64,000 nt of DNA from Candidatus Poribacteria bacterium (lineage in GTDB: Bacteria > Poribacteria > WGA-4E > WGA-3G), in assembly GCA_963664215.1 (NCBI GenBank), contig OY761014.1. One strand, given 5' to 3'. The position numbers were made by a program, and so were the translations under genes. The notes under the pieces were generated by a model. The model made no database searches, had not been told where the DNA came from, and saw nothing but the letters and a program-made list of their open reading frames with translations. This document shows positions 26,764 to 57,317 of this stretch, piece after piece. Within the stretch, counting starts at the first letter, position 1. Each line of letters begins with the position of its first letter.

Positions 26764-27010
26764 GTATCTGGTAAAATCTCAAGGAGATGAAGAAGAAGTT
26801 GACCTCAACGACGCTGAGGATATCCACGAAGTGAGTGCCCGCAGTGGGCATTTTACCGCATAGGTGTATCACCACAAACGTCCGCATTCGACGTTAGGAA
26901 ACCATTTGACCCTTGTGGAATTTGAGCAACAAAAACGGTGGTACTTCACTGGATGCATATTATATTTACGTAATAGCGATTTGAATAACTGATAATTCGC
27001 GCGTTTTGTC

Positions 27011-27039
27011 TTGCTAAAAAGCAGGGAAAATGATATAAT
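27011..27039 (+). promoter_or_regulatory. Sigma70 promoter of GIY-YIG cassette 1
   Basis: TTGCTA-17-TATAAT. Confidence 0.75.
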
Positions 27040-27041
27040 AT

Positions 27042-27192
27042 AGGAAGGTAGTGGGAAGGGGGCGTAACCCCTTCCCGATGCCAGAAACAATCAACCAAGT
27101 CACTACACCGGAATCTTGCTTTGGCATTTTCATTTTAACACACTTCCTTTTGAAATGTCAAGCGAGGTCCCTAAACCTACAGGAGCTTGACA
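27042..27192 (+). ncRNA. Conserved pseudoknotted leader of GIY-YIG cassette 1
   Basis: aggaag/cttcct outer stem; gtagtg/cactac; gggaagggg-gcgtaa-ccccttccc; atgcca/tggcat crossing pair; tgtcaagc/gcttgaca hairpin abutting the SD; homologous to 42663-42814. Confidence 0.6.
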
Positions 27193-27194
27193 GT

Positions 27195-27974
27195 ATGGGT
27201 TCTATCTACAAAATCACCAATACAGTGAACGGGAAGTCTTACATCGGTCAAACGATTCACGATGCTGAGAAGACGAGAATACGCCAACATCTCACTAGCA
27301 ATAGCAAAGGCAGCCGACGTATCAAGGACGACATTGAGAAATACGGACAAGACGCTTTCACCTACGAGATACTTCATGATGGCATTCTTCCTGAATTTCT
27401 GAATATGCTTGAGAAGGAAGAGATTGCGAGATTCAACACAGTCTCACCACACGGCTATAATCAGACGAGTGGTGGTGAAGGCGGTTCACTCTCCGAGGAA
27501 ACCCGTCGTAAAATATCTGAGGCTCATAAAGGTAAAAAGTTTTCAGAAGAACACCGTCAGAACATCTCGGAAGCTGCCAAAGGTAGACCTGCTCCTAATA
27601 AGGGTATACCTCACTCTGAAGAAGCCAAACGCAAAATGTCGGAAGTCAAGAAGGGTAGACCTGCTCTCAATAAAGGGGTACCCCATACAAAAGAAGCCAA
27701 ACGTAAAATATCGGAAGCTGCCAAAGGTAGACCTGCTCCTAATAAGGGTATACCTCACTCCAGAGAAACTAAAGAAAAAATCAGTCTTGCGAATAAAGGC
27801 AATCCTGCCCATAATAAAAGCCCTTACTATGAGGACGCACGTCAATTCTTTTCTCTGCTGCCACCTGACATGGATATGACTGAAAAAAGACGTTTACTTT
27901 TAGAAAAATTTTCGGATGTTGTCTATTGGAGTACAATCTACCGTTGGGTTAAAAAGTGGAGTCAGCACGACTAA
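27195..27974 (+). CDS. Free-standing GIY-YIG endonuclease with NUMOD3-like repeats and a C-terminal HTH-like domain
   Basis: SIYKITNTVNGKSYIGQT; GYNQTSGGEG; HSEEAKRKMSE repeats; TIYRWVKKW; SD aggag. Confidence 0.9.
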   Translation: MGSIYKITNTVNGKSYIGQTIHDAEKTRIRQHLTSNSKGSRRIKDDIEKYGQDAFTYEILHDGILPEFLNMLEKEEIARFNTVSPHGYNQTSGGEGGSLSEETRRKISEAHKGKKFSEEHRQNISEAAKGRPAPNKGIPHSEEAKRKMSEVKKGRPALNKGVPHTKEAKRKISEAAKGRPAPNKGIPHSRETKEKISLANKGNPAHNKSPYYEDARQFFSLLPPDMDMTEKRRLLLEKFSDVVYWSTIYRWVKKWSQHD

Positions 27975-42419: not shown

Positions 42420-42630
42420 AGTAAATCCTTGTAGCGTAGACGGTTCATCTGCCCCTGATAAGGGGGATTACTTGAGCATCAAACTTTCCAGTTTGTGGCA
42501 CTTTTCACAGTCAATCAGAGAATATCCGAAGGCGGATACATGCTTACAGAAACGTCGTTTTATCTCTTGAAAGACAAGACACTGCGGCTCCTAAACGGGC
42601 AATTTGTGTCAATTGCGAATTGATTTTTTC

Positions 42631-42659
42631 TTGCTAAAAAGTGGGGAAAGTGCTATAAT
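42631..42659 (+). promoter_or_regulatory. Sigma70 promoter of GIY-YIG cassette 2
   Basis: TTGCTA-17-TATAAT. Confidence 0.75.
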
Positions 42660-42662
42660 AAT

Positions 42663-42814
42663 AGGAAGGTAGTGGGAAGGGGGCGTAACCCCTCCCCGAT
42701 GCCAGAAACAATTAACCTAAGTCGCTAAACTCGGATCTTGCTAAAGGCATTTCTATTTTAACAAACCTTCCAAAGAAATGTCAAGCGAGGTCCCCAAACC
42801 ATAGGAACTTGACA
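42663..42814 (+). ncRNA. Conserved pseudoknotted leader of GIY-YIG cassette 2
   Basis: Homologue of 27042-27192; tagtg/cgcta (G-U substitution keeps pairing), atgcc/ggcat, ggaagg/ccttcc, tgtcaag/cttgaca. Confidence 0.6.
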
Positions 42815-43945
42815 ATGGGCTGCATCTATAAAATCACCAATACGGTGAACGGTAAAAGTTACATCGGACAAACAATTCACGATGCCGTGAAAACTCGGAT
42901 ACGTCAGCATCTTAATGGGTATCCGCATGGAAGCAAACTTGTCAAAAAAGCCATTGCGAAATACGGTAAAGACGCTTTCACATATGAGATACTTCATGAT
43001 GGTATTATTCCTGAATTCCTTGAAACCCTTGAAATTGAAGCGATTGAGAAGTTCAATACGCTCGCTCCATACGGATACAACCTTCAGATGGGAGGCTCTC
43101 ACAGCTCACCCTCAGCGGAAACACGTCGAAAAATCTCTGAGGGAAATAAAGGTAAAACGCGCTCGGAGGAAACAAAACAAAAAATGTCTGAAGCCGGTAA
43201 AGGCAGAAAACATTCAAAGGAAACCAGACGGAAACTTTCTAAAGCACATAAAGGTAAAAAGCTTTCCAAAGAACACCGACGGAAAATCTCGGAAGTACAA
43301 AAAGGTAAATATGTCTCAGCGGAAACGAGGCGAAAAATGTCCGAGAACAGCGCATCGAAACGCCCTGAAGTTCGGCAGAAAATTTCTGAAGCTAACAAAC
43401 GTAGAGTCTATAAACCTCACTCAGAAGAAGCCAAACGCAAAATGTCTGAATCACGCAAAGGTAGAAAATTTTCAGAAGAACACCGAAGGAAACTCTCAGA
43501 AGCACTTACAGGTAAAACTGTCTCAGAGAAAACTCGGCAGAAACTTTCTGAAGCCAACAAAGGTAAAACGATTTCAGACGAAACCCGACGGAAACTCTCG
43601 AAAGCCGGTAAACGTAGAAAGCTTTCAGAAGAACACCGCCGAAAAATATCTGAAGCACATAAAGGCAAAAAGCATTCAGACGAAACGAGGCGGAAAATAT
43701 CTGAAGCCGGTAAAGGCAAAAAGGCGTGGAACAAAGGCAAAAGGCACTCAGACGAAACGAGGCGGAAAATATCTGAATCACGCAAAGACGAAAGGTATTT
43801 ACCATCACGCAACTTGTTCTTTTCCCTTCCTGACACACTTTCACTAAAAGAAAAACGTAAAATCTTATTGAAAAAGTTTTCAGATGTTGTAAAACCAGGT
43901 ACACTTTACCGTTGGATACGCCAATGGAACTCTGAAGAAAATTAA
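42815..43945 (+). CDS. Free-standing GIY-YIG endonuclease with many NUMOD3-like repeats
   Basis: CIYKITNTVNGKSYIGQT; more than 10 S.E(T/H)RRK(I/L/M)SE repeats; C-terminal TLYRWIRQW. Confidence 0.92.
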   Translation: MGCIYKITNTVNGKSYIGQTIHDAVKTRIRQHLNGYPHGSKLVKKAIAKYGKDAFTYEILHDGIIPEFLETLEIEAIEKFNTLAPYGYNLQMGGSHSSPSAETRRKISEGNKGKTRSEETKQKMSEAGKGRKHSKETRRKLSKAHKGKKLSKEHRRKISEVQKGKYVSAETRRKMSENSASKRPEVRQKISEANKRRVYKPHSEEAKRKMSESRKGRKFSEEHRRKLSEALTGKTVSEKTRQKLSEANKGKTISDETRRKLSKAGKRRKLSEEHRRKISEAHKGKKHSDETRRKISEAGKGKKAWNKGKRHSDETRRKISESRKDERYLPSRNLFFSLPDTLSLKEKRKILLKKFSDVVKPGTLYRWIRQWNSEEN

Positions 43946-48207: not shown

Positions 48208-48719
48208 GTGAGGCTCCTTTCTAAGATAGCGATCTCCTCGCGTTGCCATTTCTCACCGAGTTGCGATACCCGTTCCTCAAACCGTTCACCCGCCGCGATG
48301 AGTTCGTAAACAGGGCGCGCCGATAGGTTCGTTTCATCATTCCCTTCCTCATGCAACGCAGGGTAATTCGCACCGAACCGCGACTGGAAATATCCGCCAC
48401 TCACTCCCAGTACCAATTCCTGCGCACTGTATTCCGCAATAGAGCCAGGACGATTCGGATGTGTCGCCGCATCCCGATAGGTGCCTTCACGCTCCAAAAT
48501 CCCTTTCCCCGGATGCGTGACCCCTTTCCGTGCCGCATACAACGGATCCAGTCCCGCCCATCGACCGTAACCTTCACTGTCAAAAATATCGTCGATCTCG
48601 TCCCAAACAAACGGCGCGAGAAAATCTGTCCAGAACCGCGTCGCATCTTGCAACCGCGTCTCGACCCTCTCAACGAAAGCCTCTGTTCTCAGGAGTGCGT
48701 CAAAATGAATGTGAATCAT
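48204..48719 (-). CDS. Neck/virion morphogenesis protein (HK97 gp10/Mu gpG-like)
   Basis: WAGLDPLYAARK..ILEREGTYRD, YPALHEEG, LSARPV motifs. Confidence 0.65.
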   Translation of the reverse strand: MIHIHFDALLRTEAFVERVETRLQDATRFWTDFLAPFVWDEIDDIFDSEGYGRWAGLDPLYAARKGVTHPGKGILEREGTYRDAATHPNRPGSIAEYSAQELVLGVSGGYFQSRFGANYPALHEEGNDETNLSARPVYELIAAGERFEERVSQLGEKWQREEIAILERSLT

Positions 48720-48769
48720 GTTCAGCGTCCTTATTGGTGTATTGCCAGTACAGCATTGCTATTGACCTT

Positions 48770-49111
48770 CTACAAGACTCCCTGGGATCTGAGATACAAT
48801 CTTTGGACAGGGCTGCCTTTCACCTGCAAAACGTCCGCCACACGGAACTCACTCAAATCCTTACGCACCAGAACATCGCCTTTTGCAATATTCGGATTCG
48901 GTTTGGATAGCAACGCGATTGCCTCTGTTTGTTGCACTGCCACATTCGACCGGAGCTGCGTCGCCTCTCGTTGCGGAATCCCGGAGGTGAGCGGTTGGAT
49001 CATGCAGGTCACATTTTCGGCAACCGTCGTCTCATCCGTGGCATCATACGCAGATTTCCTTATGATTGTCACGGTTTCTCTATGTTGTGGCGGAATCCGA
49101 AATCTTGCCAT
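48770..49111 (-). CDS. Head closure/stopper protein
   Basis: 113 aa; TVTI..NVTCMIQP..IAKGDVLV..FRVADV pattern; position. Confidence 0.6.
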   Translation of the reverse strand: MARFRIPPQHRETVTIIRKSAYDATDETTVAENVTCMIQPLTSGIPQREATQLRSNVAVQQTEAIALLSKPNPNIAKGDVLVRKDLSEFRVADVLQVKGSPVQRLYLRSQGVL

Positions 49112-49133
49112 AATTGACGCTACATCCCAGGCG

Positions 49134-49574
49134 TTAGCCGACCACCGCAAACGGAACGCGCCGCTTCGTTTGCGAACCCACAGGAGTCCTCGATGCCTGA
49201 ACCTCCGTGACGACATCCGCAACCTTCTCGGTGACCTTCGCCTGATGAAACGCACGCTTGTCTTTCCAGTTAATCTCTTGGACCCGCGTGACAATTTCAA
49301 TCTGGTCTGACTGAAGGATCTGTGCCGCAACGACGCACAACTCAGATGCACACTGATGCATCATGGCCAACCGAGCCACCTCTAATGCCTCGCCTGTCAA
49401 TGTGTCGGCATCAATGTTCTCCGCTCGTAAGCGTTTACGGACCTCGCGTTCAGCGTCCGGCGCGAAGGGCTGCTGCGATAGATAGGCATCGGAGATATGA
49501 TCCGCAGTGACATCCGGCGCAATCAGCCCACGCACCGCATCGTAATGTGTTGAAGTCAGTATCGTTGCCGGCAT
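49134..49574 (-). CDS. Head-tail adaptor protein
   Basis: Helical ~146 aa immediately after the capsid gene; SD atggag. Confidence 0.6.
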   Translation of the reverse strand: MPATILTSTHYDAVRGLIAPDVTADHISDAYLSQQPFAPDAEREVRKRLRAENIDADTLTGEALEVARLAMMHQCASELCVVAAQILQSDQIEIVTRVQEINWKDKRAFHQAKVTEKVADVVTEVQASRTPVGSQTKRRVPFAVVG

Positions 49575-49652: not shown

Positions 49653-51014
49653 CTATTCCAATACTTTCAGTGCCTTGGCTCCTGTTTCGCCCAACACCAC
49701 GACGTAGATCGCTTTCTTCGGCTGATACGAAATCCAGCCCCAGATCTCGGAGCAGACGATGTATTCGACCTGCTTGAGCATATCCCGCGTCGTCTCGATG
49801 ATGTCTGTGTTCATTTGGGAAACGTACTCGACCGCTTTCCGCTTGTCATATACAACAAACGCATTGTGCTTCGTCGAACTGCCCCCGGTGCCTGCCTGAA
49901 TCCGATCCTGAAGGTAGTCGTGCCACCCGACCCGAACCCCCTGCGCCAACTGGTTCATTACGGAGAAGCTCCCACCATACCCGCTCATGACGGCGTTGGG
50001 ACGCTCATTCATGTTCACCAGCATCACATTCGTGCCAGCAACTTTTGCCAATTGGAGATCCGTGATATCCGGGTCATACCCGATCGCAGATGTCAACATA
50101 TAGGAACGTTTGAACTTCTTCTGGATCGAGAGCCACGCTTTCGGGGTCATCGTATCGGTTGCCTCGGAATCCAGTTCCTGCAGCCGAATCAGCGTGCCAC
50201 CGAGGTCGTCGCCACCTGCACCATGCAACATCGTCTCAAGCCCTTCATCCACTTTCGCCATGATCCGCTGGACAGCGATCTCCTCGACGTGTTCCATCGC
50301 TTTGTCAATGAACTCGACTTCCCGAAGGTGTTCATACGTGAATGGAATCGCTAACATCCGCTTTTTCGGCTGGATGGGACGCTCAGAGGTGTCGAAGGTC
50401 GCCATCGGGGGATCCGCTCCAGGGGTCCGCTGCTCCTCACGGAAGGCATCTTCATCATACTCAAGGATCGTCGCACGGTAGTCTTTCTTGCTCGTCTCTG
50501 CCATGCGCGTCGTCAATTCCTCAAGCGCGATGTCCACTTCCACGTCTTCGTCCCAGTGCGCCATCGCATCGTGGTAAGGGGTGAGCGTTGAGCCAGGCGG
50601 CGTATCATGCACATCTTGGAAAGTGCCAGCACGTTCCCAACGCGCACGTCTTTCGGCTTTGCGTGCCGCCGCTTCGATCTGCGGGCGATACACCGTACTC
50701 CGATACGCGTTCAAACACATCTCTTTGAGGGCTAACTCTTTCGCAGGATCGCCAATCACGTCTTCACAGCGAGTCGGCCAGACACCCGCAGCAGGGTTGC
50801 AGACGGTGGTCATCTCCAAATCGTCAAGCACGACCTCAAACGCTGAAAGCCGTTCGTCATCGGCACCCAACTCGCCGTCTTTCTCCGGGTCATATTGGGA
50901 ATCAATGTACGCAGAAAACGGCATGCCCGCATCCGCGGCTTGCTCGACAAGCCCAGCGCGCTGCGATGGATTCCCATACCTTTCTACGATTTCTCGTGTC
51001 GTCATTAAAGACAT
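49653..51014 (-). CDS. Major capsid protein (HK97 fold, inferred)
   Basis: 453 aa after decoration/protease genes; RMLAIPFTYEHLRE, VYDKRKAVEYV..DIIETTRDMLKQVEYIV. Confidence 0.8.
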   Translation of the reverse strand: MSLMTTREIVERYGNPSQRAGLVEQAADAGMPFSAYIDSQYDPEKDGELGADDERLSAFEVVLDDLEMTTVCNPAAGVWPTRCEDVIGDPAKELALKEMCLNAYRSTVYRPQIEAAARKAERRARWERAGTFQDVHDTPPGSTLTPYHDAMAHWDEDVEVDIALEELTTRMAETSKKDYRATILEYDEDAFREEQRTPGADPPMATFDTSERPIQPKKRMLAIPFTYEHLREVEFIDKAMEHVEEIAVQRIMAKVDEGLETMLHGAGGDDLGGTLIRLQELDSEATDTMTPKAWLSIQKKFKRSYMLTSAIGYDPDITDLQLAKVAGTNVMLVNMNERPNAVMSGYGGSFSVMNQLAQGVRVGWHDYLQDRIQAGTGGSSTKHNAFVVYDKRKAVEYVSQMNTDIIETTRDMLKQVEYIVCSEIWGWISYQPKKAIYVVVLGETGAKALKVLE

Positions 51015-51726: not shown

Positions 51727-53090
51727 CTATCGCCATCTCCGCTTCCGTTGACGCGGGGTCCGTTTCGTTCGCTCTGGGGGTGGTTCATGGTCGTCGGTTG
51801 ATCTTCTGCCCGCCGGTAACGCCGCATCGCCTTTTTTCTTGTTCTGCGCGATATGCTCTTCGAGTTTCTCCAAGGGCATGTCGCCGTAGTACTCGCGGTG
51901 ATACTCCTCATCGAAGTCGTCACCATACGCACGGTTACCCTGCTTGATCGCCTCTTCAACACGCGACTCCCGATACGCCTCGCCGTCCTCGGCAGCTTTC
52001 GTCAGATCGGCGATCTCGTCTTTCTGTTCCTCAACCTTCTCGCGGAGATCCGTCACTTCCGTTTTCACCTTCTCTATTACGGCATCGGGGTCATCGGTAG
52101 ACCGCACGTCCTTGAGATCCAAATCCTCCCGCAACGTCGTGACGATCTGCTGACGCGCCGTGTCCACATCCTGTGAGGCGTTCGTGAGATCAGCGATCTC
52201 GTCTTTCTGGGTTGAAACAGTGGTGCGAAGGGTCGATACCTCAGTCTCCAATGCCTTCACAACTTCATCGGGTTCGTCCGTCGAACGGATACCCGGAACC
52301 TTTAGCGCATCACGCAATTTCTCAATCCACTCATTATCTGTCACTGTAAATTCCTCCATAAAACTTCGCATCCGAGCCGCGACTTCGCTCTCAGGTATGT
52401 CGGTAGGCATTGGGTTACCTAACCCGTAAGCGGTTGGGTCACCCCACCCGTACATGAGAAACCGCTGCTTCTCGATGGAAGTGTGTCGGTTAGAGCCAAA
52501 CTCAACGAGGGAGACCTCTTTCAGCCTCGCATCGAAGATCGTGTAAGTAGCCTTTTCCATTTTGCCATCTTTGTTTTCGTACTGTTTACCCATCTTGTGA
52601 GTGCATTGCCCCTCACGTTCGGGTTCCCAATCCCAATAGGAGTACCGCCGTATCGGAGATTACACAAATTACAGATCTCACGCGCATCGTAGAATCCGAT
52701 AGAGACCTGGTTGATTAATTCGTGTTCAATTGCCCTGATCAATTTCTCAGAAGTTCGGAACTCACGACTGCCCCCATCATATTCCATGTTCTTGAGAATG
52801 AAGAAATCGATCAGCAACTCGTTTTTGTCAGTGAGAATCGCATTCGCTGAACGTCCATAGCCGAAAGATCGCCACGCGTGATGGTCCTTCAACGACACGC
52901 CGGGCTTCGCTTTCGCGTCCTTCTCAAAGTTTTTGAGAGTGGTCTTGGGATCCATCATAGAATTATGCCGATCCAACTTGTCATTACTTGCGGTGATGCG
53001 CACCCAGTATTTGTCATCATCTTCTTCGGGGAGATCCGAATGCATCGCGCGAGTACCAATGCTAACAGGGAAAAGTCTTATATCTTCCAT
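51727..53090 (-). pseudogene. Prohead protease-scaffold fusion split by a 1-nt deletion near 52645 (mutation or assembly error)
   Basis: ASNDKLDRH, DHH, VSIGF, ICNLC in frame A continue as PIRRYSYW..QCTHKMG..LKEVSLVEFGSN plus coiled-coil repeats in frame B; SD gagga at ~53097. Confidence 0.75.
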
Positions 53091-53143
53091 ACTTATCCTC
53101 CTTTCAATCGTTGATCTAAACCTCTTCACGCTCTCTTTTTTTC

Positions 53144-53172
53144 TTGACGTTTCATGTCAAAAATGCTATAAT
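53144..53172 (+). promoter_or_regulatory. Sigma70 promoter of GIY-YIG cassette 3
   Basis: TTGACG-17-TATAAT with extended TG. Confidence 0.8.
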
Positions 53173-53178
53173 ATTGAT

Positions 53179-53254
53179 GTATTGCTGGTAGAGAATGCTA
53201 TCCTCGTCGCAAGGCGGGGTCTCTACCACCACCGAATAGCATCGGGAGCAATAC
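53179..53254 (+). ncRNA. Pseudoknotted leader of GIY-YIG cassette 3
   Basis: gtattgct/agcaatac outer; ggtagaga/tctctacc P1; atgctat/atagcat P2 crossing P1; cctcgtc-GCAA-ggcgggg hairpin. Confidence 0.65.
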
Positions 53255-53288
53255 ACTTTTAGCAATACAACCCCCGAAGGAGTTTCTT

Positions 53289-54272
53289 ATGGAAAATCCT
53301 GGTATCTATATTCTCACGTCCCCAAGCGACAAACAGTATGTTGGTAAAGATAGTAATTTGCCCAAACGTGCTACACAACATTTGCGCGGAAAAGAACCTA
53401 CGTGTCCTCGTATCCATAATGCTATCAAAAAATATGGTGCTAACACCTTTTCTCTTCAAATCATCCAATACCCCGGCATTTCGCAAGAGGCTTTGAATGC
53501 GGTGGAACGCTGGTGGATTCGCCGACTTCAAACACTGTCTCCATCGGGCTATAATCTGACCGAGGGAGGTGAGGGTGTTATCCCCTCCGAAGAAACACGT
53601 CAAAAAATAAGTAAAAAAGCCTCTAAACGCGTTGAAGAAGGCACACATAATCTTCTGGGGACGAACAACCCAAGTCACAAACGCATCGCGGACGGAACAC
53701 ACCCTTTTCTTGACAGTGAAATTCAGAGGCGTGCTCAAATAAAACGAGATGCGGTTAACAAAAAACGACTTGAAGAGGGTACACATAACTTCCTTGATAG
53801 TGATTTTCAGCGTCACAACAACCAAAAACGAATCAAGGATGGCACCCATAATTTGCTCGGAAAGGAGAATCCAAGCCATAAACGCGTAGCGGATGGCACA
53901 CATAACTTTCTTGGGGATAGCAATCCAATGAAACAACGTTCTAAAAATGGCACACACCATTTTCTTGGTAGTGATTTTCAGCGTCGCCGCGTCAAGGATG
54001 GTACGCATAACTTCCTCGGGAGTAGCCAAAATCGTAAACGACTTGAGGATGGCACACATCACTTCCTGGGCGAGAACAACCCAATGAGAAGGCTTGCCAA
54101 AGAAGGCAGACATCCGAGTACCCTCAAACGCCAAAAAGCCGAATGGTGCTATATCATTGCGTTGTCTCGGTTTTGGTATGAAATTCATGATTATACCCTT
54201 AAGCGTCGTGCCGAGTTCCTCTCGAAAGATATTCCCGATACGTCAAATGCCGAACAGGAATACCTCTTTTAG
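53289..54272 (+). CDS. Free-standing GIY-YIG endonuclease with GTHxFL repeats
   Basis: GIYILT..KQYVGK..R; GYNLTEGGEG; eight GTH(N/H/P)(F/L)L(G/D) units. Confidence 0.85.
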   Translation: MENPGIYILTSPSDKQYVGKDSNLPKRATQHLRGKEPTCPRIHNAIKKYGANTFSLQIIQYPGISQEALNAVERWWIRRLQTLSPSGYNLTEGGEGVIPSEETRQKISKKASKRVEEGTHNLLGTNNPSHKRIADGTHPFLDSEIQRRAQIKRDAVNKKRLEEGTHNFLDSDFQRHNNQKRIKDGTHNLLGKENPSHKRVADGTHNFLGDSNPMKQRSKNGTHHFLGSDFQRRRVKDGTHNFLGSSQNRKRLEDGTHHFLGENNPMRRLAKEGRHPSTLKRQKAEWCYIIALSRFWYEIHDYTLKRRAEFLSKDIPDTSNAEQEYLF

Positions 54273-54278
54273 GCATCG

Positions 54279-55691
54279 TTAATTGACGATGCCCTCTCTG
54301 ACTTGCATCCAATCTAAACTCCCATACGTCCGCAGCCCTGCGGAATGCCTGTCTTTTTCCGATTTGAACTTCTCAAGCGCGTCCTGATAGTCCTTGTCTT
54401 CAATGCCCTCCATACCCTGCAGCTCCTTGAGTTTTTTGAGGTTGTCAATCTTCGTCCCCTCCGCTTCCGCCATGGCTTTCACGTCCTGCGGATCCGGTGT
54501 GTTCTCGAAATAGAACTGGACCTTCCCTTGCCGTCCTTCCGCCCGTAAGACGTACCCAAGGAGCGTCGACATGACACCCGCAACCGTCGACTGGATACTC
54601 GATATGTTGATTCGGTAGTCACGTCTCTGTTCAACGGCATGGGACTCCGCGACCGATTCATTACTGTGCTGTTTTATGGGGGTGCTGCCCGTAGCTCTAC
54701 CCACCCGACGGTCATATAGTCTCATCAGCCCATCGACCAATCCGAAGAAACTTGTCTGCATCTGACCGCCCTTCGGCATTTCGACTTCCACGATGTCTAA
54801 ATACGCATACCCCTCGTTCGGCTTTAAAGTTGAGTACCGCTGGTTGATACCCGCAAGGAAGTCTTGGATAAATTCGTCTTCCTTATCAACATCACCGATG
54901 ACATCCGCCGGCATGAAGTCTCGCAACTTCTCCGAATCCACCTTAAACCCTGCCCGCGCCCAGCCTTGCGATTCCAAGACTCTCCGAAAATCGTGCATCA
55001 CCCCTAACATCCGAATCACATCTAACGGTGCCGATTCCAACATAGACCTGCCGAAGGGTTCATTCGGGCCCGCATTGAACGGCACATACATCACCGTCGG
55101 ATCGTCCTGTAGCGATACCCATTTCCCTTGCTGCCATTGACCGAGCTCCCAGTCGTTGCCGTGACGATTGAAACGCGCAACATAAGGATCCATCACCGCA
55201 ATGTCCATCGCCATGTCCGCCGCTTCGTTGAGTTCCAGCTCCCAAAAAATAGCGCCGCCTTTGTAGATGCCGGCAAACACTCTGTCAATCAACACGTCCG
55301 GATCATGATGTTTCGCCGCAAGCCTGTCAAAGAAACCATCGATAACCGGGGTTGCACCTTTCGGCTTCACTTGGTAACCCCAAGATTCGTTCGCGTTCCG
55401 CAGGAAATCCTCATACGCTTTTTTGACCTCCGGGCTGATACTCGTGACGAGTTTCATGAACTGATCCACCGGCAGATGTAGCAGTTCCTCTTCTGTCCAG
55501 TTTTTCAGTTGCCACACACTTCGCGACCGTTCCGGCGGGGCAACATGATACATCGTGTGCTGCCGATGCGGATCCTGCATCGAGACGCGACCGCCACTCA
55601 ATGCCCGTGTGTTACGGTGCTTCGCAATTGCTTTTGGATTCCTGCCGAAAATCCGTTTGCTGTAGTGTTGGAGTGTCCTTTGTAGATTCAT
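54279..55691 (-). CDS. Portal protein
   Basis: 470 aa after the terminase; NEPFGRSMLESA motif. Confidence 0.75.
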   Translation of the reverse strand: MNLQRTLQHYSKRIFGRNPKAIAKHRNTRALSGGRVSMQDPHRQHTMYHVAPPERSRSVWQLKNWTEEELLHLPVDQFMKLVTSISPEVKKAYEDFLRNANESWGYQVKPKGATPVIDGFFDRLAAKHHDPDVLIDRVFAGIYKGGAIFWELELNEAADMAMDIAVMDPYVARFNRHGNDWELGQWQQGKWVSLQDDPTVMYVPFNAGPNEPFGRSMLESAPLDVIRMLGVMHDFRRVLESQGWARAGFKVDSEKLRDFMPADVIGDVDKEDEFIQDFLAGINQRYSTLKPNEGYAYLDIVEVEMPKGGQMQTSFFGLVDGLMRLYDRRVGRATGSTPIKQHSNESVAESHAVEQRRDYRINISSIQSTVAGVMSTLLGYVLRAEGRQGKVQFYFENTPDPQDVKAMAEAEGTKIDNLKKLKELQGMEGIEDKDYQDALEKFKSEKDRHSAGLRTYGSLDWMQVREGIVN

Positions 55692-55883: not shown

Positions 55884-57317
55884 CTATCGCATTTTCACCG
55901 ATCCGTGGATGACGCGTCCGCTACCGACACCGCGTCGTTTTCCGAGACTCTGCACCAGATAACTCGTGCCGTCCACCCCGTGATTGTCACCGACGACATC
56001 CTCATCGTCTCTGCGCGTGCCTTTCAATTTCTCGGCATAACTCAAACTCAAAAATTCGTCTGTGACCTCAACCGGACGGTAATCTTCCTTCAGGTCTTCA
56101 TCTGGCGGATGCACCAGCCGATCCCGTAAGAAAAAGATCGCCGGTTGACCTGTGGCGTCCTTCTTCAGCCGTTCCTTGACAGCGTCGATCTGCGCAACCC
56201 TGTCTTTTTTCGGTTCGTTCACCCGGAATTTAGCACGCTTGAGCTGCTCTACACCGTCCTGATCCTCACTGTCTACCGCGGCATACCGTATCCGATCGTC
56301 TCTATCACAGTTATCTGTTATCAGCTGGATCAAGTCCGGTTTCGTTAACCGCGTTTTGTAGATTTCCTTATAGGCATAGAGCCTATCGTCTGGAGAGTGC
56401 GCCCACCAGATAACGCTCGCAGGATTACGGAACCCCCAGTCAACACTCAAATAGCGAGGCCAATTCGGCATGATGGTTACGTCAACGATGTGCGTCTCCG
56501 GCTCAAAATCGTCAAAAACTAACCCTTCACCCGATGCCCAGAGTCCGAGGAAACCCCGCTTAAACCTTAACCCATCCAGATTCTTGAGTTTCTCTACACG
56601 CCGTAAGCCGCTATCCGAAAACAGATCCATGATTTGATCGAGCAACTTCGGATCCGGGTTGTTCTCAAACGCAATCTTGAAAGCCCTCAGTCGATCTGAA
56701 CCCTGTTGTATGATCTCAGGGTTGTCCAAGAACGACATCCGGAAATACTTAAGTTTGTCGTCTTTCGTTTGATCGCGTATCCAGTGATTCGGAACGTTCG
56801 GATTGCAATCCCCGACAAGCATCGCAATCGGCATCGTCCCAGCCCGTTCAGAGACACGCGCCGTCAGTTCGTCCCACGCATCAAAAGGCACGAGTTCGGC
56901 TTGGTTGACAAACCCTGCATCAAAGAAATCGGATAACAGGTTCTGCGGCTTGTCCAACCCGTTCATGTAGATCCGAGTACCGTTGTCGTACTCGAAAAAC
57001 TCCGGACGCTCACCCCCAAACCGTGTCACGTCTCTGCCTTCAGGGTTATCATCGCGACTCGGCGGTTTGTAACCGAGATATTTCTCATACGTCGGGATGA
57101 TGTTCCGATACACTCGGTTCAGAGACCTATGAATGAAGGTCATCCGAGCCCCAGGCCAATCCAGCGCCAACTTATCTATATAGGCACACAGACTATACGT
57201 TTTACCAGCATCATAAGTGCCGCCCGCAATTTTCACACTTGCCTGCGAACCCCACAGATCCGCCATCGAACCATATACAGCAAAAGCACCCTCACGGAAC
57301 TGGTAAACGTTACGCAT
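55884..57317 (-). CDS. terL: Terminase large subunit (PBSX/SPP1-like)
   Basis: Walker A GGTYDAGKT; VGDCNP coupling motif; nuclease SVDWGFRNP and DNHGVDG. Confidence 0.92.
   Translation of the reverse strand: MRNVYQFREGAFAVYGSMADLWGSQASVKIAGGTYDAGKTYSLCAYIDKLALDWPGARMTFIHRSLNRVYRNIIPTYEKYLGYKPPSRDDNPEGRDVTRFGGERPEFFEYDNGTRIYMNGLDKPQNLLSDFFDAGFVNQAELVPFDAWDELTARVSERAGTMPIAMLVGDCNPNVPNHWIRDQTKDDKLKYFRMSFLDNPEIIQQGSDRLRAFKIAFENNPDPKLLDQIMDLFSDSGLRRVEKLKNLDGLRFKRGFLGLWASGEGLVFDDFEPETHIVDVTIMPNWPRYLSVDWGFRNPASVIWWAHSPDDRLYAYKEIYKTRLTKPDLIQLITDNCDRDDRIRYAAVDSEDQDGVEQLKRAKFRVNEPKKDRVAQIDAVKERLKKDATGQPAIFFLRDRLVHPPDEDLKEDYRPVEVTDEFLSLSYAEKLKGTRRDDEDVVGDNHGVDGTSYLVQSLGKRRGVGSGRVIHGSVKMR

What the first reader, a model, noticed from the sequence alone, without database searches (positions are those of the whole stretch)
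53144..53290. Third GIY-YIG cassette uses a different-sequence pseudoknot with HDV-like topology
Four near-perfect helices fit in 76 nt starting at the predicted start site, with a GNRA-capped hairpin. The strand order P1-P2-hairpin-P1'-linker-P2' equals that of HDV-like ribozymes, and the linker ends in CGAA before P2'. However, the canonical 3-bp P3/L3 and the P1.1 GG are missing. A second agcaatac (53261-53268) offers an alternative outer-stem partner nearer the SD. An unrelated nuclease subtype carrying the same kind of leader strengthens the case for a functional nuclease-RNA association.
Basis: partly seen in the sequence, partly recalled or inferred. Interest (0 to 1): 0.8.

Follow-up and report, generated by a model that had tools for sequence, protein, structure and literature searches.

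The report
Pseudoknotted leader RNA of selfish genes
The untranslated leader of this phage homing-endonuclease gene is a real, conserved pseudoknotted RNA that also sits in front of TnpB and other mobile-element genes in Poribacteria; it fails the tests for an HDV-like ribozyme and most likely acts as a two-state switch that limits expression of these selfish genes.

Summary
A near-consensus sigma-70 promoter (53144-53172) is followed by 76 nt (53179-53254) that form four helices: S1, S2, hairpin H and a pseudoknot PK. A second copy of the S1 3' strand lies at 53261-68.

In 24 distinct homologues, 98% of pair cells are paired and 19 of 29 pairs show compensatory changes. A second subtype swaps the four central S2 pairs. 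The strand order matches the nested pseudoknot of HDV, but HDV membership fails:
- There is no 3-bp P3/L3 and no P1.1.
- The base of the P1 equivalent is an invariant G-C, not G·U.
- The would-be leader strand is paired in S1.
- Rfam gives no hit at E<=10.

The RNA is a new family, found only in Candidatus Poribacteria and their phages. It always starts at the predicted transcription start. It precedes GIY-YIG endonucleases, TnpB nucleases, a gene carried by an IS1595 element, and small membrane proteins.

The single 5' strand of S1 covaries equally well with both tandem 3' copies, so there are two mutually exclusive helices. In TnpB loci copy 2 holds the start codon; in subtype B it covers the Shine-Dalgarno region.

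Best reading: a bistable leader that gates translation or stability. A ribozyme, a true riboswitch or a static stabiliser remain possible.

The parts
53144..53172 (+). Sigma-70-type promoter: -35 TTGACG, 17-nt spacer, TG-extended -10 TATAAT. The predicted start is about G53179.
   Evidence: 11 of 12 consensus matches, with TG before the -10. Every homologous leader has an equivalent TTGACA/TATAAT-like promoter at the same distance.
53179..53186 (+). S1 5' strand, GUAUUGCU. It begins at the predicted 5' end of the RNA and is the single partner for both 3' copies.
   Evidence: There is only one occurrence per locus. It covaries with both copy 1 and copy 2.
53187..53193 (+). S2 5' strand, GGUAGAG.
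   Evidence: 100% paired, and nearly invariant within subtype A. The central 4 bp are swapped in subtype B, GGCGAGG/CCUCGCC.
53194..53194 (+). L1: a single invariant A between S2 and the pseudoknot strand.
   Evidence: Invariant in subtypes A and B.
53195..53201 (+). Pseudoknot 5' strand, AUGCUAU.
   Evidence: 99.4% paired, with 5 of 7 pairs changed on both sides (for example AUGUCAG/CUGACAU and AUACGAC/GUCGUAU).
53202..53219 (+). Hairpin H: a 7-bp stem with two G·U pairs and a GCAA loop.
   Evidence: all 7 pairs covary and 100% are paired. The loop sequence is not conserved.
53220..53227 (+). U53220 plus the S2 3' strand, CUCUACC.
53228..53235 (+). Linker L3, ACCACCGA. Its 5' part is variable and it ends in the invariant ACCGA.
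   Evidence: ACCGA is invariant in subtypes A and B.
53236..53242 (+). Pseudoknot 3' strand, AUAGCAU.
53243..53246 (+). Junction CGGG. CGG is invariant in both subtypes and could pair with the CCG of L3.
   Evidence: The CCG/CGG pairing never varies, so it is untested.
53247..53254 (+). S1 3' strand, copy 1 (AGCAAUAC).
   Evidence: 6 of 8 pairs have double changes.
53255..53260 (+). Spacer ACUUUU between the two copies. In TnpB-type relatives this spacer carries the Shine-Dalgarno sequence.
53261..53268 (+). Copy 2 of the S1 3' strand (AGCAAUAC), the alternative partner of the 5' end.
   Evidence: 97.4% paired, with 6 of 8 pairs changed on both sides. RNAalifold independently chooses this pairing. 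In the window leader, the partition function gives 62% copy 2 and 38% copy 1.
53277..53291 (+). Shine-Dalgarno AAGGAG (53277-82) and the ATG start codon (53289-91) of the endonuclease gene.
53289..54272 (+). GIY-YIG homing endonuclease, 327 aa, with C-terminal DGTHNFL-type repeats. It is antisense to the phage head module.
   Evidence: Pfam GIY-YIG 2.3e-6. PHROG homing endonuclease 3e-19. More than 1000 homologues, and every one that carries a source name is from Ca. Poribacteria.

Best explanation
SHOWN. 53179-53268 encodes a member of a previously undescribed, Poribacteria-restricted family of structured 5' leader RNAs.
- It is transcribed from its own strong promoter, and the very 5' end is paired.
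- The core is an H-type pseudoknot: S2 and PK, with hairpin H inserted at their junction. It has an invariant single A, an invariant ACCGA in the linker and an invariant CGG, and it is closed by helix S1.
- The 5' strand of S1 has two tandem, mutually exclusive 3' partners (copy 1 and copy 2). Both are maintained by covariation.
- The promoter-leader module heads GIY-YIG homing endonuclease cassettes in phages, IS605-family TnpB genes, an IS1595 passenger gene and small membrane-protein genes.

INFERRED. The leader is a cis-acting two-state gate that keeps expression of these strongly transcribed, potentially toxic selfish genes low or conditional.
- With S1 on copy 1, the compact pseudoknot domain is closed and the sequence downstream is single-stranded, so it can be translated. 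That sequence includes the SD in the spacer and the start codon in copy 2 in TnpB loci. In the window it is a 22-nt A/U-rich standby stretch before the SD.
- With S1 shifted to copy 2, the start codon (TnpB loci) or the SD region (subtype B) is paired. In the window only 8 nt remain free upstream of the SD.
- In either register the 5' end stays paired, which should also protect the mRNA from 5'-end-dependent decay.
- What sets the balance is not known. Candidates are folding kinetics on the nascent RNA, Mg2+, a ligand, or a protein that recognises the invariant core.
For: - Structure: one search gives 98% pairing, 19 of 29 pairs with compensatory changes, and 0 of 500 shuffles as good. The G·U pairs are tolerated on the + strand only.
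- Subtype B keeps the architecture with a different S2 sequence.
- Alternative helix: copy 2 pairs in 97.4% of cells with 6 of 8 pairs covarying. Copy 1 pairs in 93.2% with 6 of 8 covarying. RNAalifold picks copy 2 by itself. Of 31 distinct leaders, 26 have two anchored complementary sites of at least 6 bp. There is only one 5' strand per locus.
- Link to translation, read from the sequences. In all 10 TnpB-type leaders the start codon of the TnpB frame lies in copy 2 (9 AUG, 1 CUG). In four of them an in-frame AUG in copy 1 is an alternative start. In 8 of the 10 a GGAG/AGGA/GAGG-type SD fills the spacer. In L015 and L028 the same SD-plus-start module opens a 3-4-codon mini-ORF. In subtype B, copy 2 lies 4-8 nt before the AUG, over the SD position.
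- Predicted bistability of the window leader: 62% copy 2, 38% copy 1.
- Near-consensus promoters, with S1 starting at the predicted +1, in all members.
- Precedent: T4 homing endonuclease genes are held in check by RNA structures that sequester the ribosome binding site (PMC2988022).
Against: - There is no experimental data. Only assembled contigs of RNA runs were available, so there is no 5'-end, cleavage or structure-probing evidence.
- In the window's own leader, copy 2 ends 8 nt before the SD and contains no start codon. The occlusion argument therefore rests on relatives.
- In several small-protein loci the main start is 45-100 nt downstream.
- Thermodynamic modelling of TnpB and subtype-B leaders favours copy 1 almost completely, because S1 is extended there.
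- The roughly 20 invariant unpaired or sequence-fixed nucleotides are more than a simple two-helix toggle needs. They point to an unknown partner or to catalysis.
- The identity of copy 1 and copy 2 could in principle be renewed by local duplication rather than by selection on pairing.
Confidence: 0.5

Rival explanations
1. Self-cleaving ribozyme, either a divergent HDV-like fold or a new class. The pseudoknotted core cleaves the leader, for example at the S1/S2 junction or near CGGG. This would give the mRNA a 5'-OH end or release the 5' domain, and copy 2 would re-capture the 5' strand afterwards.
For: - The strand order is that of the HDV nested pseudoknot, with a 7-bp P1 equivalent, a 7-bp P2 equivalent and invariant Cs in the linker before PK'.
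- It is a compact core of about 70 nt with roughly 20 invariant positions.
- It is exclusively associated with mobile elements and phages, as many bacterial small ribozymes are.
Against: - No P3/L3 and no P1.1 partner.
- G-C instead of G·U at the base of S2.
- The nucleotide 5' of S2 is stacked in helix S1, which is unfavourable for in-line attack.
- No hit to any Rfam ribozyme model at E<=10.
- The motif is always in a fixed position at the transcription start and in the sense orientation upstream of an ORF, like a cis-regulator.
- A cleavage product a few nucleotides long would serve little purpose.
Confidence: 0.12
2. Genuine riboswitch. The pseudoknot core is an aptamer for a small molecule or ion. 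Ligand binding locks S1 on copy 1 and switches translation on, or the reverse.
For: - The invariant junction nucleotides and a sequence-fixed S2, suggestive of base triples with ACCGA, are typical of H-type pseudoknot aptamers.
- An expression-platform-like alternative helix covers the start codon or SD.
Against: - The regulated genes have no metabolic theme.
- The family is confined to one candidate phylum, which is unusual for metabolite riboswitches.
- No ligand can be proposed from gene context.
- Copy 1 is as available as copy 2 in the absence of a ligand.
Confidence: 0.15
3. Static 5' stabiliser or insulator. The domain simply hides the 5' triphosphate end and gives the portable cassette context-independent mRNA stability and translation. 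Copy 2 is a redundant back-up partner.
For: - S1 starts at the predicted +1 in all members.
- The 5' end is paired in either register.
- The module travels with very different genes and elements.
Against: - A plain hairpin would suffice. The pseudoknot, the invariant ACCGA/CGG/A and the fixed S2 sequence would be unexplained.
- The systematic placement of the SD in the spacer and the start codon in copy 2 suggests regulation rather than mere protection.
Confidence: 0.18
4. DNA-level element: an operator for a DNA-binding protein, or a single-stranded DNA recognition structure at a transposon end.
For: - It lies within about 45-110 bp of the left boundary of the TnpB and IS1595 repeat units.
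- The 8-mer occurs three times, once inverted and twice direct.
Against: - Covariation of a pseudoknot and of H with many G·U pairs and no A·C pairs is strand-specific and typical of RNA.
- It is positioned exactly downstream of a promoter.
- It is present in elements with unrelated mobility mechanisms (homing endonuclease cassette, IS605, IS1595).
Confidence: 0.04

Closest known systems
HDV-like self-cleaving ribozymes (HDV, CPEB3, drz families)
   Same: - Order of strands: P1(S2)-P2(PK)-hairpin-P1'-linker-P2'.
- A 7-bp P1 equivalent.
- A C-containing linker immediately before P2'.
- Short joiners that fit two side-by-side coaxial stacks.
- A location at the 5' end of a mobile-element transcript, as in R2 or L1Tc elements (from my own knowledge).
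   Different: - The hairpin is a regular 6-7-bp covarying stem with a variable tetraloop, not a 3-bp P3 with a 7-8-nt L3.
- No P1.1.
- G-C rather than G·U at the base of P1.
- No P4.
- An extra outer helix S1 pairs the would-be leader.
- No covariance-model hit.
- Cleavage is untested.
RBS-sequestering RNA hairpins of T4-type homing endonuclease genes (I-TevI/II/III, segB, mobE)
   Same: - Post-transcriptional limitation of a phage-borne GIY-YIG or HNH endonuclease by leader structure (PMC2988022).
- T4 segD, like this cassette, sits antisense within the head gene module (same paper).
   Different: - Those are simple hairpins that act only on read-through transcripts and are bypassed by an internal late promoter.
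- Here the structure is a conserved pseudoknot domain on the cassette's own transcript, with two alternative registers, and it is shared with transposon genes.
Fold-back or 5'-UTR structures of transposase mRNAs (IS10, IS200), and 5'-end alternative pairings of hok-type toxin mRNAs and the MS2 maturation gene
   Same: - The 5' segment of the mRNA pairs with the translation initiation region to keep a toxic or selfish gene nearly silent.
- There are alternative partners for the 5' end, and kinetic windows for translation (from my own knowledge of these systems).
   Different: - There is no sequence or structural homology.
- None of them has a conserved pseudoknot core or tandem identical 3' partners.
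H-type pseudoknot riboswitch aptamers with translational expression platforms (for example SAM-II and preQ1-II/III)
   Same: - A compact pseudoknot with a conserved linker lying along a sequence-fixed helix.
- A closing helix whose formation competes with an alternative pairing at the RBS.
   Different: - No match to any Rfam riboswitch.
- No metabolic gene association.
- The competitor is a duplicate of the P1 3' strand rather than an anti-SD.
Pistol ribozyme
   Same: - A hairpin whose loop forms a 6-7-bp pseudoknot with a downstream segment.
- A linker of about 8 nt.
- A short G/C joiner followed by another helix. If S1 is taken as an opened P3, the layout resembles a circular permutation (my reasoning from recalled structure, not a test).
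   Different: - No P2.
- The conserved pistol nucleotides (the AAA linker and the G-U cleavage site) are absent.
- No Rfam hit.

Membership tests
HDV-like ribozymes | Nested double pseudoknot with the strand order P1-P2-P3-P1'-(P4)-P2'. | tested here: met
   The order S2-PK-H-S2'-L3-PK' is supported by covariation. P4 is absent, which minimal variants allow.
HDV-like ribozymes | A 3-bp P3 capped by a 7-8-nt L3 that supplies active-site nucleotides. | tested here: not met
   H is a 6-7-bp stem in which all 7 pairs covary, with a 4-nt loop of variable sequence (GCAA, GCUU, ACUU, GCAC, UCCU).
HDV-like ribozymes | A 2-bp P1.1 between L3 and the two G residues that follow P1'. | tested here: not met
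   The nucleotides after S2' are variable (ACC, GCA, AAA, UCA, AGA; subtype B has G or C), and there are no free L3 nucleotides.
HDV-like ribozymes | G·U wobble at the base of P1 next to the cleavage site, with an unpaired upstream leader. | tested here: not met
   G53187-C53227 is an invariant G-C in 24 of 24 sequences. The upstream 8 nt are paired in S1.
HDV-like ribozymes | A conserved catalytic C in J4/2 before P2'. | tested here: inconclusive
   The invariant ACCGA provides conserved Cs at the right place. Conservation alone does not show a catalytic role.
HDV-like ribozymes | A match to the family covariance models (Rfam HDV, CPEB3, drz and HDV-F-prausnitzii models). | tested here: not met
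   No Rfam match at the gathering threshold or at E<=10 for the window leader. Only chance hits to unrelated families appear for two relatives.
HDV-like ribozymes | Site-specific self-cleavage that yields 2',3'-cyclic phosphate and 5'-OH ends. | not testable with these tools
   Only assembled contigs of RNA runs were available; there were no raw reads.
Riboswitch (cis-regulatory aptamer plus expression platform) | A conserved structured domain in the 5' UTR, in sense orientation upstream of the regulated ORF. | tested here: met
   All 31 distinct leaders lie between a promoter and an ORF on the same strand.
Riboswitch (cis-regulatory aptamer plus expression platform) | Mutually exclusive alternative pairing that involves the translation initiation region. 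| tested here: met
   Both S1/copy 1 and S1/copy 2 covary. Copy 2 contains the start codon (TnpB loci) or overlaps the SD position (subtype B). In the window's own leader it does not reach the SD.
Riboswitch (cis-regulatory aptamer plus expression platform) | A specific small-molecule ligand, and a gene set related to that ligand. | tested here: not met
   The downstream genes are homing endonucleases, TnpB, an IS passenger gene and small membrane proteins. They share no metabolic theme. Ligand binding itself cannot be tested here.
Pistol ribozyme | A match to the Rfam pistol model and its conserved core nucleotides. | tested here: not met
   No Rfam hit. P2 and the conserved A-rich linker and G-U site are absent on inspection. 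A permuted form would escape the model.
T4-type homing endonuclease RBS-sequestering hairpin | A stable hairpin that directly pairs the SD, formed only on read-through transcripts, with a promoter inside the 5' arm. | tested here: not met
   In the window the SD (53277-82) is outside all conserved helices. The promoter lies upstream of the whole structure.

The most novel reading that the evidence does not exclude
The invariant pseudoknot core is an aptamer or a catalytic centre of a class not yet described. In this reading, a portable 'promoter plus sensor' module lets unrelated selfish genes couple their expression to one common cellular or infection signal. Those genes include GIY-YIG homing endonucleases, RNA-guided TnpB nucleases and IS passenger genes of Poribacteria and their phages. 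The tandem S1 partners would be its read-out.
Probability: 0.22. Interest if true: 0.85.

Novelty: new variant of a known kind. Interest (0 to 1): 0.62.

Why it matters
Control of homing endonuclease and transposase genes by leader RNA structure is known, but only as idiosyncratic hairpins. Here one elaborate, covariation-proven pseudoknot domain with its own strong promoter is shared by several kinds of element. These are phage homing-endonuclease cassettes, IS605-type TnpB genes (relatives of Cas12) and an IS1595 element, all in an uncultivated sponge-symbiont phylum.

The family gives:
- a new structured RNA family for Rfam-type catalogues;
- a rare natural case in which two mutually exclusive helices are both documented by covariation;
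- a candidate portable expression-control module for toxic nucleases;
- a short, well-defined RNA (about 90 nt) that can be tested directly for switching, ligand binding or self-cleavage.

It also corrects the tempting but unsupported label of 'HDV-like ribozyme'.

Tried and rejected
- **Rfam 15.** I scanned the whole window at gathering thresholds, the 601-nt region at E<=10, and two relatives (a subtype-B and a TnpB-type leader). Nothing but chance hits appeared.
- **HDV-like membership.** Rejected feature by feature; see the membership test.
- **Pistol, twister and hammerhead resemblance.** Considered from recalled consensus features. The core nucleotides are absent. A paper on permuted ribozymes (PMC10085705) offered no matching form.
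- **Relation to the leaders of cassettes 1 and 2 (about 27040-27185 and 42663-42815).** The covariance model R1 gives no hit there, and their characteristic word is absent from all fetched loci. They are a different RNA.
- **JGI metagenome pattern scan.** Of 39 matches, 37 were chance and only L049 and L066 were real.
- **Two IMG/VR scans for subtype B.** These returned only GC-rich chance matches.
- **Transcript evidence.** RNA runs exist only as assembled contigs. They show that family members are present in a coral/sponge metatranscriptome, but they carry no 5'-end information.
- **MAFFT alignment of subtypes A and B.** It mis-registered S2, so I compared the subtypes by explicit parsing instead.
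- **Literature searches.** I searched for Poribacteria riboswitch or ncRNA, GIY-YIG RNA motifs, TnpB with ribozyme, and new ribozyme classes. No description of this motif was found.
- **INPHARED phage collection.** No DNA similarity.
- **tRNA or tmRNA.** None found.
Full report
**Context.** The window is part of an uncultivated tailed phage or prophage. It has no DNA similarity to 50,697 deposited phage genomes. The finding lies in the head module, which is on the minus strand:
- large terminase, 55884-57317;
- portal, 54279-55691;
- an unassigned gene, 52521-53093;
- major head protein, 49653-51014.

Three plus-strand GIY-YIG endonuclease genes interrupt the minus-strand structural genes: about 27186-27974, 42815-43945 and 53289-54272. 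The third is the subject here. Its product has more than 1000 homologues, and every one that carries a source name is from Candidatus Poribacteria, which are sponge symbionts.

**The observation.**
- TTGACG-17 nt-TATAAT at 53144-53172 is the best sigma-70-like site in the surrounding 7 kb: 11 of 12 matches, with a TG extension.
- About seven nucleotides later, 76 nt begin that form four helices:
  - S1: 53179-86 with 53247-54;
  - S2: 53187-93 with 53221-27;
  - hairpin H: 53202-19;
  - pseudoknot PK: 53195-201 with 53236-42.
- They are joined by A53194, U53220, ACCACCGA (53228-35) and CGGG (53243-46).
- A second AGCAAUAC lies at 53261-68. The SD is at 53277-82 and the ATG at 53289.
- Even without the pseudoknot, the region folds far better than shuffles do (z = -4.5, 0 of 200).

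**Is it real?** I used protein-guided and pattern-guided retrieval.
- The leader turned up upstream of homologous endonuclease genes in IMG/VR contigs.
- It also occurs in 26 stretches of GTDB genomes, all of them Candidatus Poribacteria, with up to six copies in one contig.
- The JGI metagenome scan added only two true members among chance hits.
- On 24 distinct sequences, 98.0% of pair cells are standard pairs and 19 of 29 pairs change on both sides. No shuffle of 500 reaches these values, and slid controls give 32-48% pairing.
- PK covaries at 5 of 7 pairs, H at 7 of 7 and S1 at 6 of 8.
- S2 is nearly invariant in this set. However, a second subtype upstream of more distant endonuclease homologues (L078-81, L084, L085) keeps the same architecture with S2 = GGCGAGG/CCUCGCC and an 8-bp PK. 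S2 is therefore also confirmed by covariation.
- Frequent G·U pairs and no A·C pairs show that the plus-strand transcript is what folds.
- Invariant across both subtypes are the outer G-C pairs of S2, the single A after S2, ACCGA in the linker, and CGG after PK.

**Is it an HDV-like ribozyme?** The strand order is indeed that of the HDV nested pseudoknot. The very short joiners (A, U, CGGG) are hard to reconcile with a single coaxial S1-S2-PK stack. They fit two side-by-side stacks, S1+S2 and PK+H, as in HDV; this is my geometric inference. The defining features, however, fail.
- H is an ordinary covarying 6-7-bp hairpin with a variable tetraloop. There is therefore no 3-bp P3, no L3 and nothing to form P1.1.
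- The nucleotides after S2' vary instead of being GG.
- The base pair at the putative cleavage site is an invariant G-C, not G·U.
- The eight nucleotides upstream of it are paired in S1.
- No Rfam model, ribozyme or otherwise, matches at E<=10 in the window or in two relatives.

Self-cleavage by an unknown mechanism cannot be excluded computationally. Only assembled contigs of RNA runs were available, with no read ends.

**What it is associated with.** The covariance model built from the family hits the window once (112.9 bits; the next best has E about 1). It does not hit the leaders of cassettes 1 and 2, which are a different RNA. The downstream genes of the family are not only GIY-YIG endonucleases:
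- ten leaders precede IS605-family TnpB genes of at least two types (the two scanned have Pfam OrfB_IS605 plus Cas12f1-like TNB);
- two precede a 114-aa protein with a sub-threshold GIY-YIG match;
- others precede small membrane or secreted proteins.

The six identical copies in one Poribacteria genome are a 1,977-bp IS1595-family insertion sequence, 99.9% identical between copies. It carries the promoter, the leader and a 78-aa membrane-protein ORF at one end, opposite to its DDE transposase. For TnpB elements, similarity between copies begins 43-110 nt upstream of S2, so the promoter-leader module is part of the mobile unit. The common theme is mobile or selfish, potentially toxic genes with a strong private promoter.

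**The new feature: two partners for one 5' strand.** In every S1 sequence class (GUAUUGCU, GCAUAGUU, GCAUUGCU, ACGUUGUU, CGUCACUU, ACAUCGUU and others), the 3' complement occurs twice. The two starts are 14-18 nt apart in subtype A and abut in subtype B. The 5' strand occurs once.
- Copy 1 is paired in 93.2% of cells, with 6 of 8 pairs covarying.
- Copy 2 is paired in 97.4%, with 6 of 8 covarying.
- RNAalifold, given no guidance, pairs the 5' strand with copy 2.
- For the window's leader, the partition function without the pseudoknot puts 62% on copy 2 and 38% on copy 1.

Two mutually exclusive helices that are both preserved by compensatory change are the classical signature of a conformational switch.

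The link to translation comes from reading the sequences.
- In all ten TnpB-type leaders the start codon of the TnpB frame lies inside copy 2. In four of them an in-frame AUG in copy 1 is an alternative start. In eight of the ten a GGAG-, AGGA- or GAGG-type SD fills the spacer.
- In L015 and L028 the same arrangement opens a 3-4-codon mini-ORF ahead of the main gene.
- In subtype B, copy 2 lies 4-8 nt before the AUG, over the SD position.
- In the window's own subtype-A endonuclease leader the module has degenerated. The spacer is ACUUUU, copy 2 has no start codon, and the SD lies 8 nt further on.
- Yet S1, the spacer and copy 2 are identical in all endonuclease-type members, while PK and H have changed repeatedly. 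This points to strong constraint.

**Mechanism proposed.**

Shown:
- a promoter-proximal, pseudoknotted leader whose 5' end is always paired;
- two alternative registers of the closing helix.

Inferred:
- The register on copy 1 closes the compact core and leaves the initiation region, or here a 22-nt A/U-rich standby stretch, single-stranded.
- The register on copy 2 pairs the start codon or SD, or here shortens the free stretch to 8 nt.
- The balance limits translation of a strongly transcribed selfish gene, and in either state the paired 5' end should slow 5'-end-dependent decay.

Unknown: what shifts the balance. Candidates are co-transcriptional kinetics, Mg2+, or a ligand or protein bound by the invariant A/ACCGA/CGG core.

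The nearest functional precedents are the RBS-sequestering hairpins of T4 endonuclease genes; T4 segD is likewise antisense in the head module (PMC2988022). Others are the fold-back structures of IS10 and IS200 transposase mRNAs and hok-type toxin mRNAs (from my own knowledge).

**Rivals.**
- A self-cleaving ribozyme of new or HDV-derived type (0.12).
- A true riboswitch (0.15).
- A static stabiliser or insulator (0.18).
- A DNA-level element (0.04).

**Weak points of my reading.**
- There is no experimental support.
- The occlusion argument is indirect for the window's own leader.
- Modelling favours copy 1 strongly in TnpB and subtype-B leaders, where S1 is extended.
- The number of invariant nucleotides suggests a partner or a chemistry that I cannot name.

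**Verdict.** The HDV-like ribozyme interpretation is supported only at the level of topology. The element is a new, narrowly distributed structured leader RNA family of mobile-element genes, with a covariation-supported two-state closing helix.

Noticed in passing
window 26990-27190 and 42630-42815: The other two GIY-YIG cassettes share an almost identical promoter and leader (cttgctaaaaag...gatataat, then GGAAGGUAGUGGGAAGGGGGCGUAACCCC...GAUGCCAGAAACAAU). In this leader the 5' end GGAAGG pairs with CCUUCC about 85 nt downstream. It is not a member of the RNA family studied here (no R1 hit). A leader with similar words (..AAAACAAUGAAUCAAC..) precedes the GIY-YIG homologue P0111 at L204 5830-6000.
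   Followed up: partly
window 53108/54216 (RNA-run contig X25 no. 17): A related phage sequence (about 85-90% identical) joins 53108 directly to 54216, skipping 1107 nt. It therefore lacks the promoter, the leader and most of the endonuclease ORF, but keeps the last 57 nt of the ORF. This is either an empty homing site or a deletion remnant. It delimits the mobile cassette to about 53109-54215.
   Followed up: partly
L015 2064-4039 (and L018, L031, L032, L034, L036): A 1,977-bp IS1595-family insertion sequence is present in six 99.9%-identical copies in one Poribacteria genome. It carries the same promoter and leader driving a 78-aa hydrophobic ORF, opposite to the DDE transposase. The ORF is a possible toxin-like or accessory passenger gene.
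   Followed up: partly
L015, L028, L024, L066, L013 leaders (sequences): Copy 2 of the outer-stem strand contains AUG or GUG in most S1 classes. In these loci it opens mini-ORFs of 1-5 codons upstream of the main gene. In L028 the mini-ORF stops just before the main SD. In L078 and L085 a GUG frame ends in a UGA that overlaps the main AUG. Translational coupling is possible.
   Followed up: no
window 53600-54130: The C-terminal half of the endonuclease consists of tandem modules of about 18-20 aa built around (D/E/N)GTH(N/H/P)(F/L)L, related to NUMOD3-type DNA-binding repeats. Homologues range from 186 to 366 aa, and DNA-run contigs show internal skips and back-joins in this repeat region. The repeat number evolves fast.
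   Followed up: no
window 54272-54293: A perfect 8-bp hairpin (GGCAUCGU...ACGAUGCC) overlaps the stop codon of the endonuclease gene and the stop codon of the convergent portal gene. It has no U-tract on either strand. It may be a bidirectional processing or termination element.
   Followed up: no
window 52521-53129 (minus strand): The mechanical ORF starts at GTG 53129. However, a strong SD (AAGGAGG) followed by ATG at 53091-53093 (MEDIRLF...) is the likely true start. That start region (cctcctttcaatcgttga...) is conserved upstream of the cassette in all related phages. The gene has no Pfam or PHROG match.
   Followed up: partly
window 48351-49310 (plus strand): A fourth plus-strand ORF (319 aa) lies inside the minus-strand structural module. 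It has no Pfam or PHROG hit, and I saw no promoter- or leader-like sequence upstream. It is unclear whether it is a real gene.
   Followed up: no
RNA/DNA run contigs, loose ends at 53202/53235: Sponge and coral data sets contain a further variant of the motif, GGUAGAG-A-GUUUCAC...GUGAAAC-CGGG-AACUAUGC. Here the otherwise invariant terminal A-U pair of the pseudoknot has become G-C. This supports a full 7-bp PK rather than the alternative CCGA/UCGG mini-hairpin for that position.
   Followed up: no
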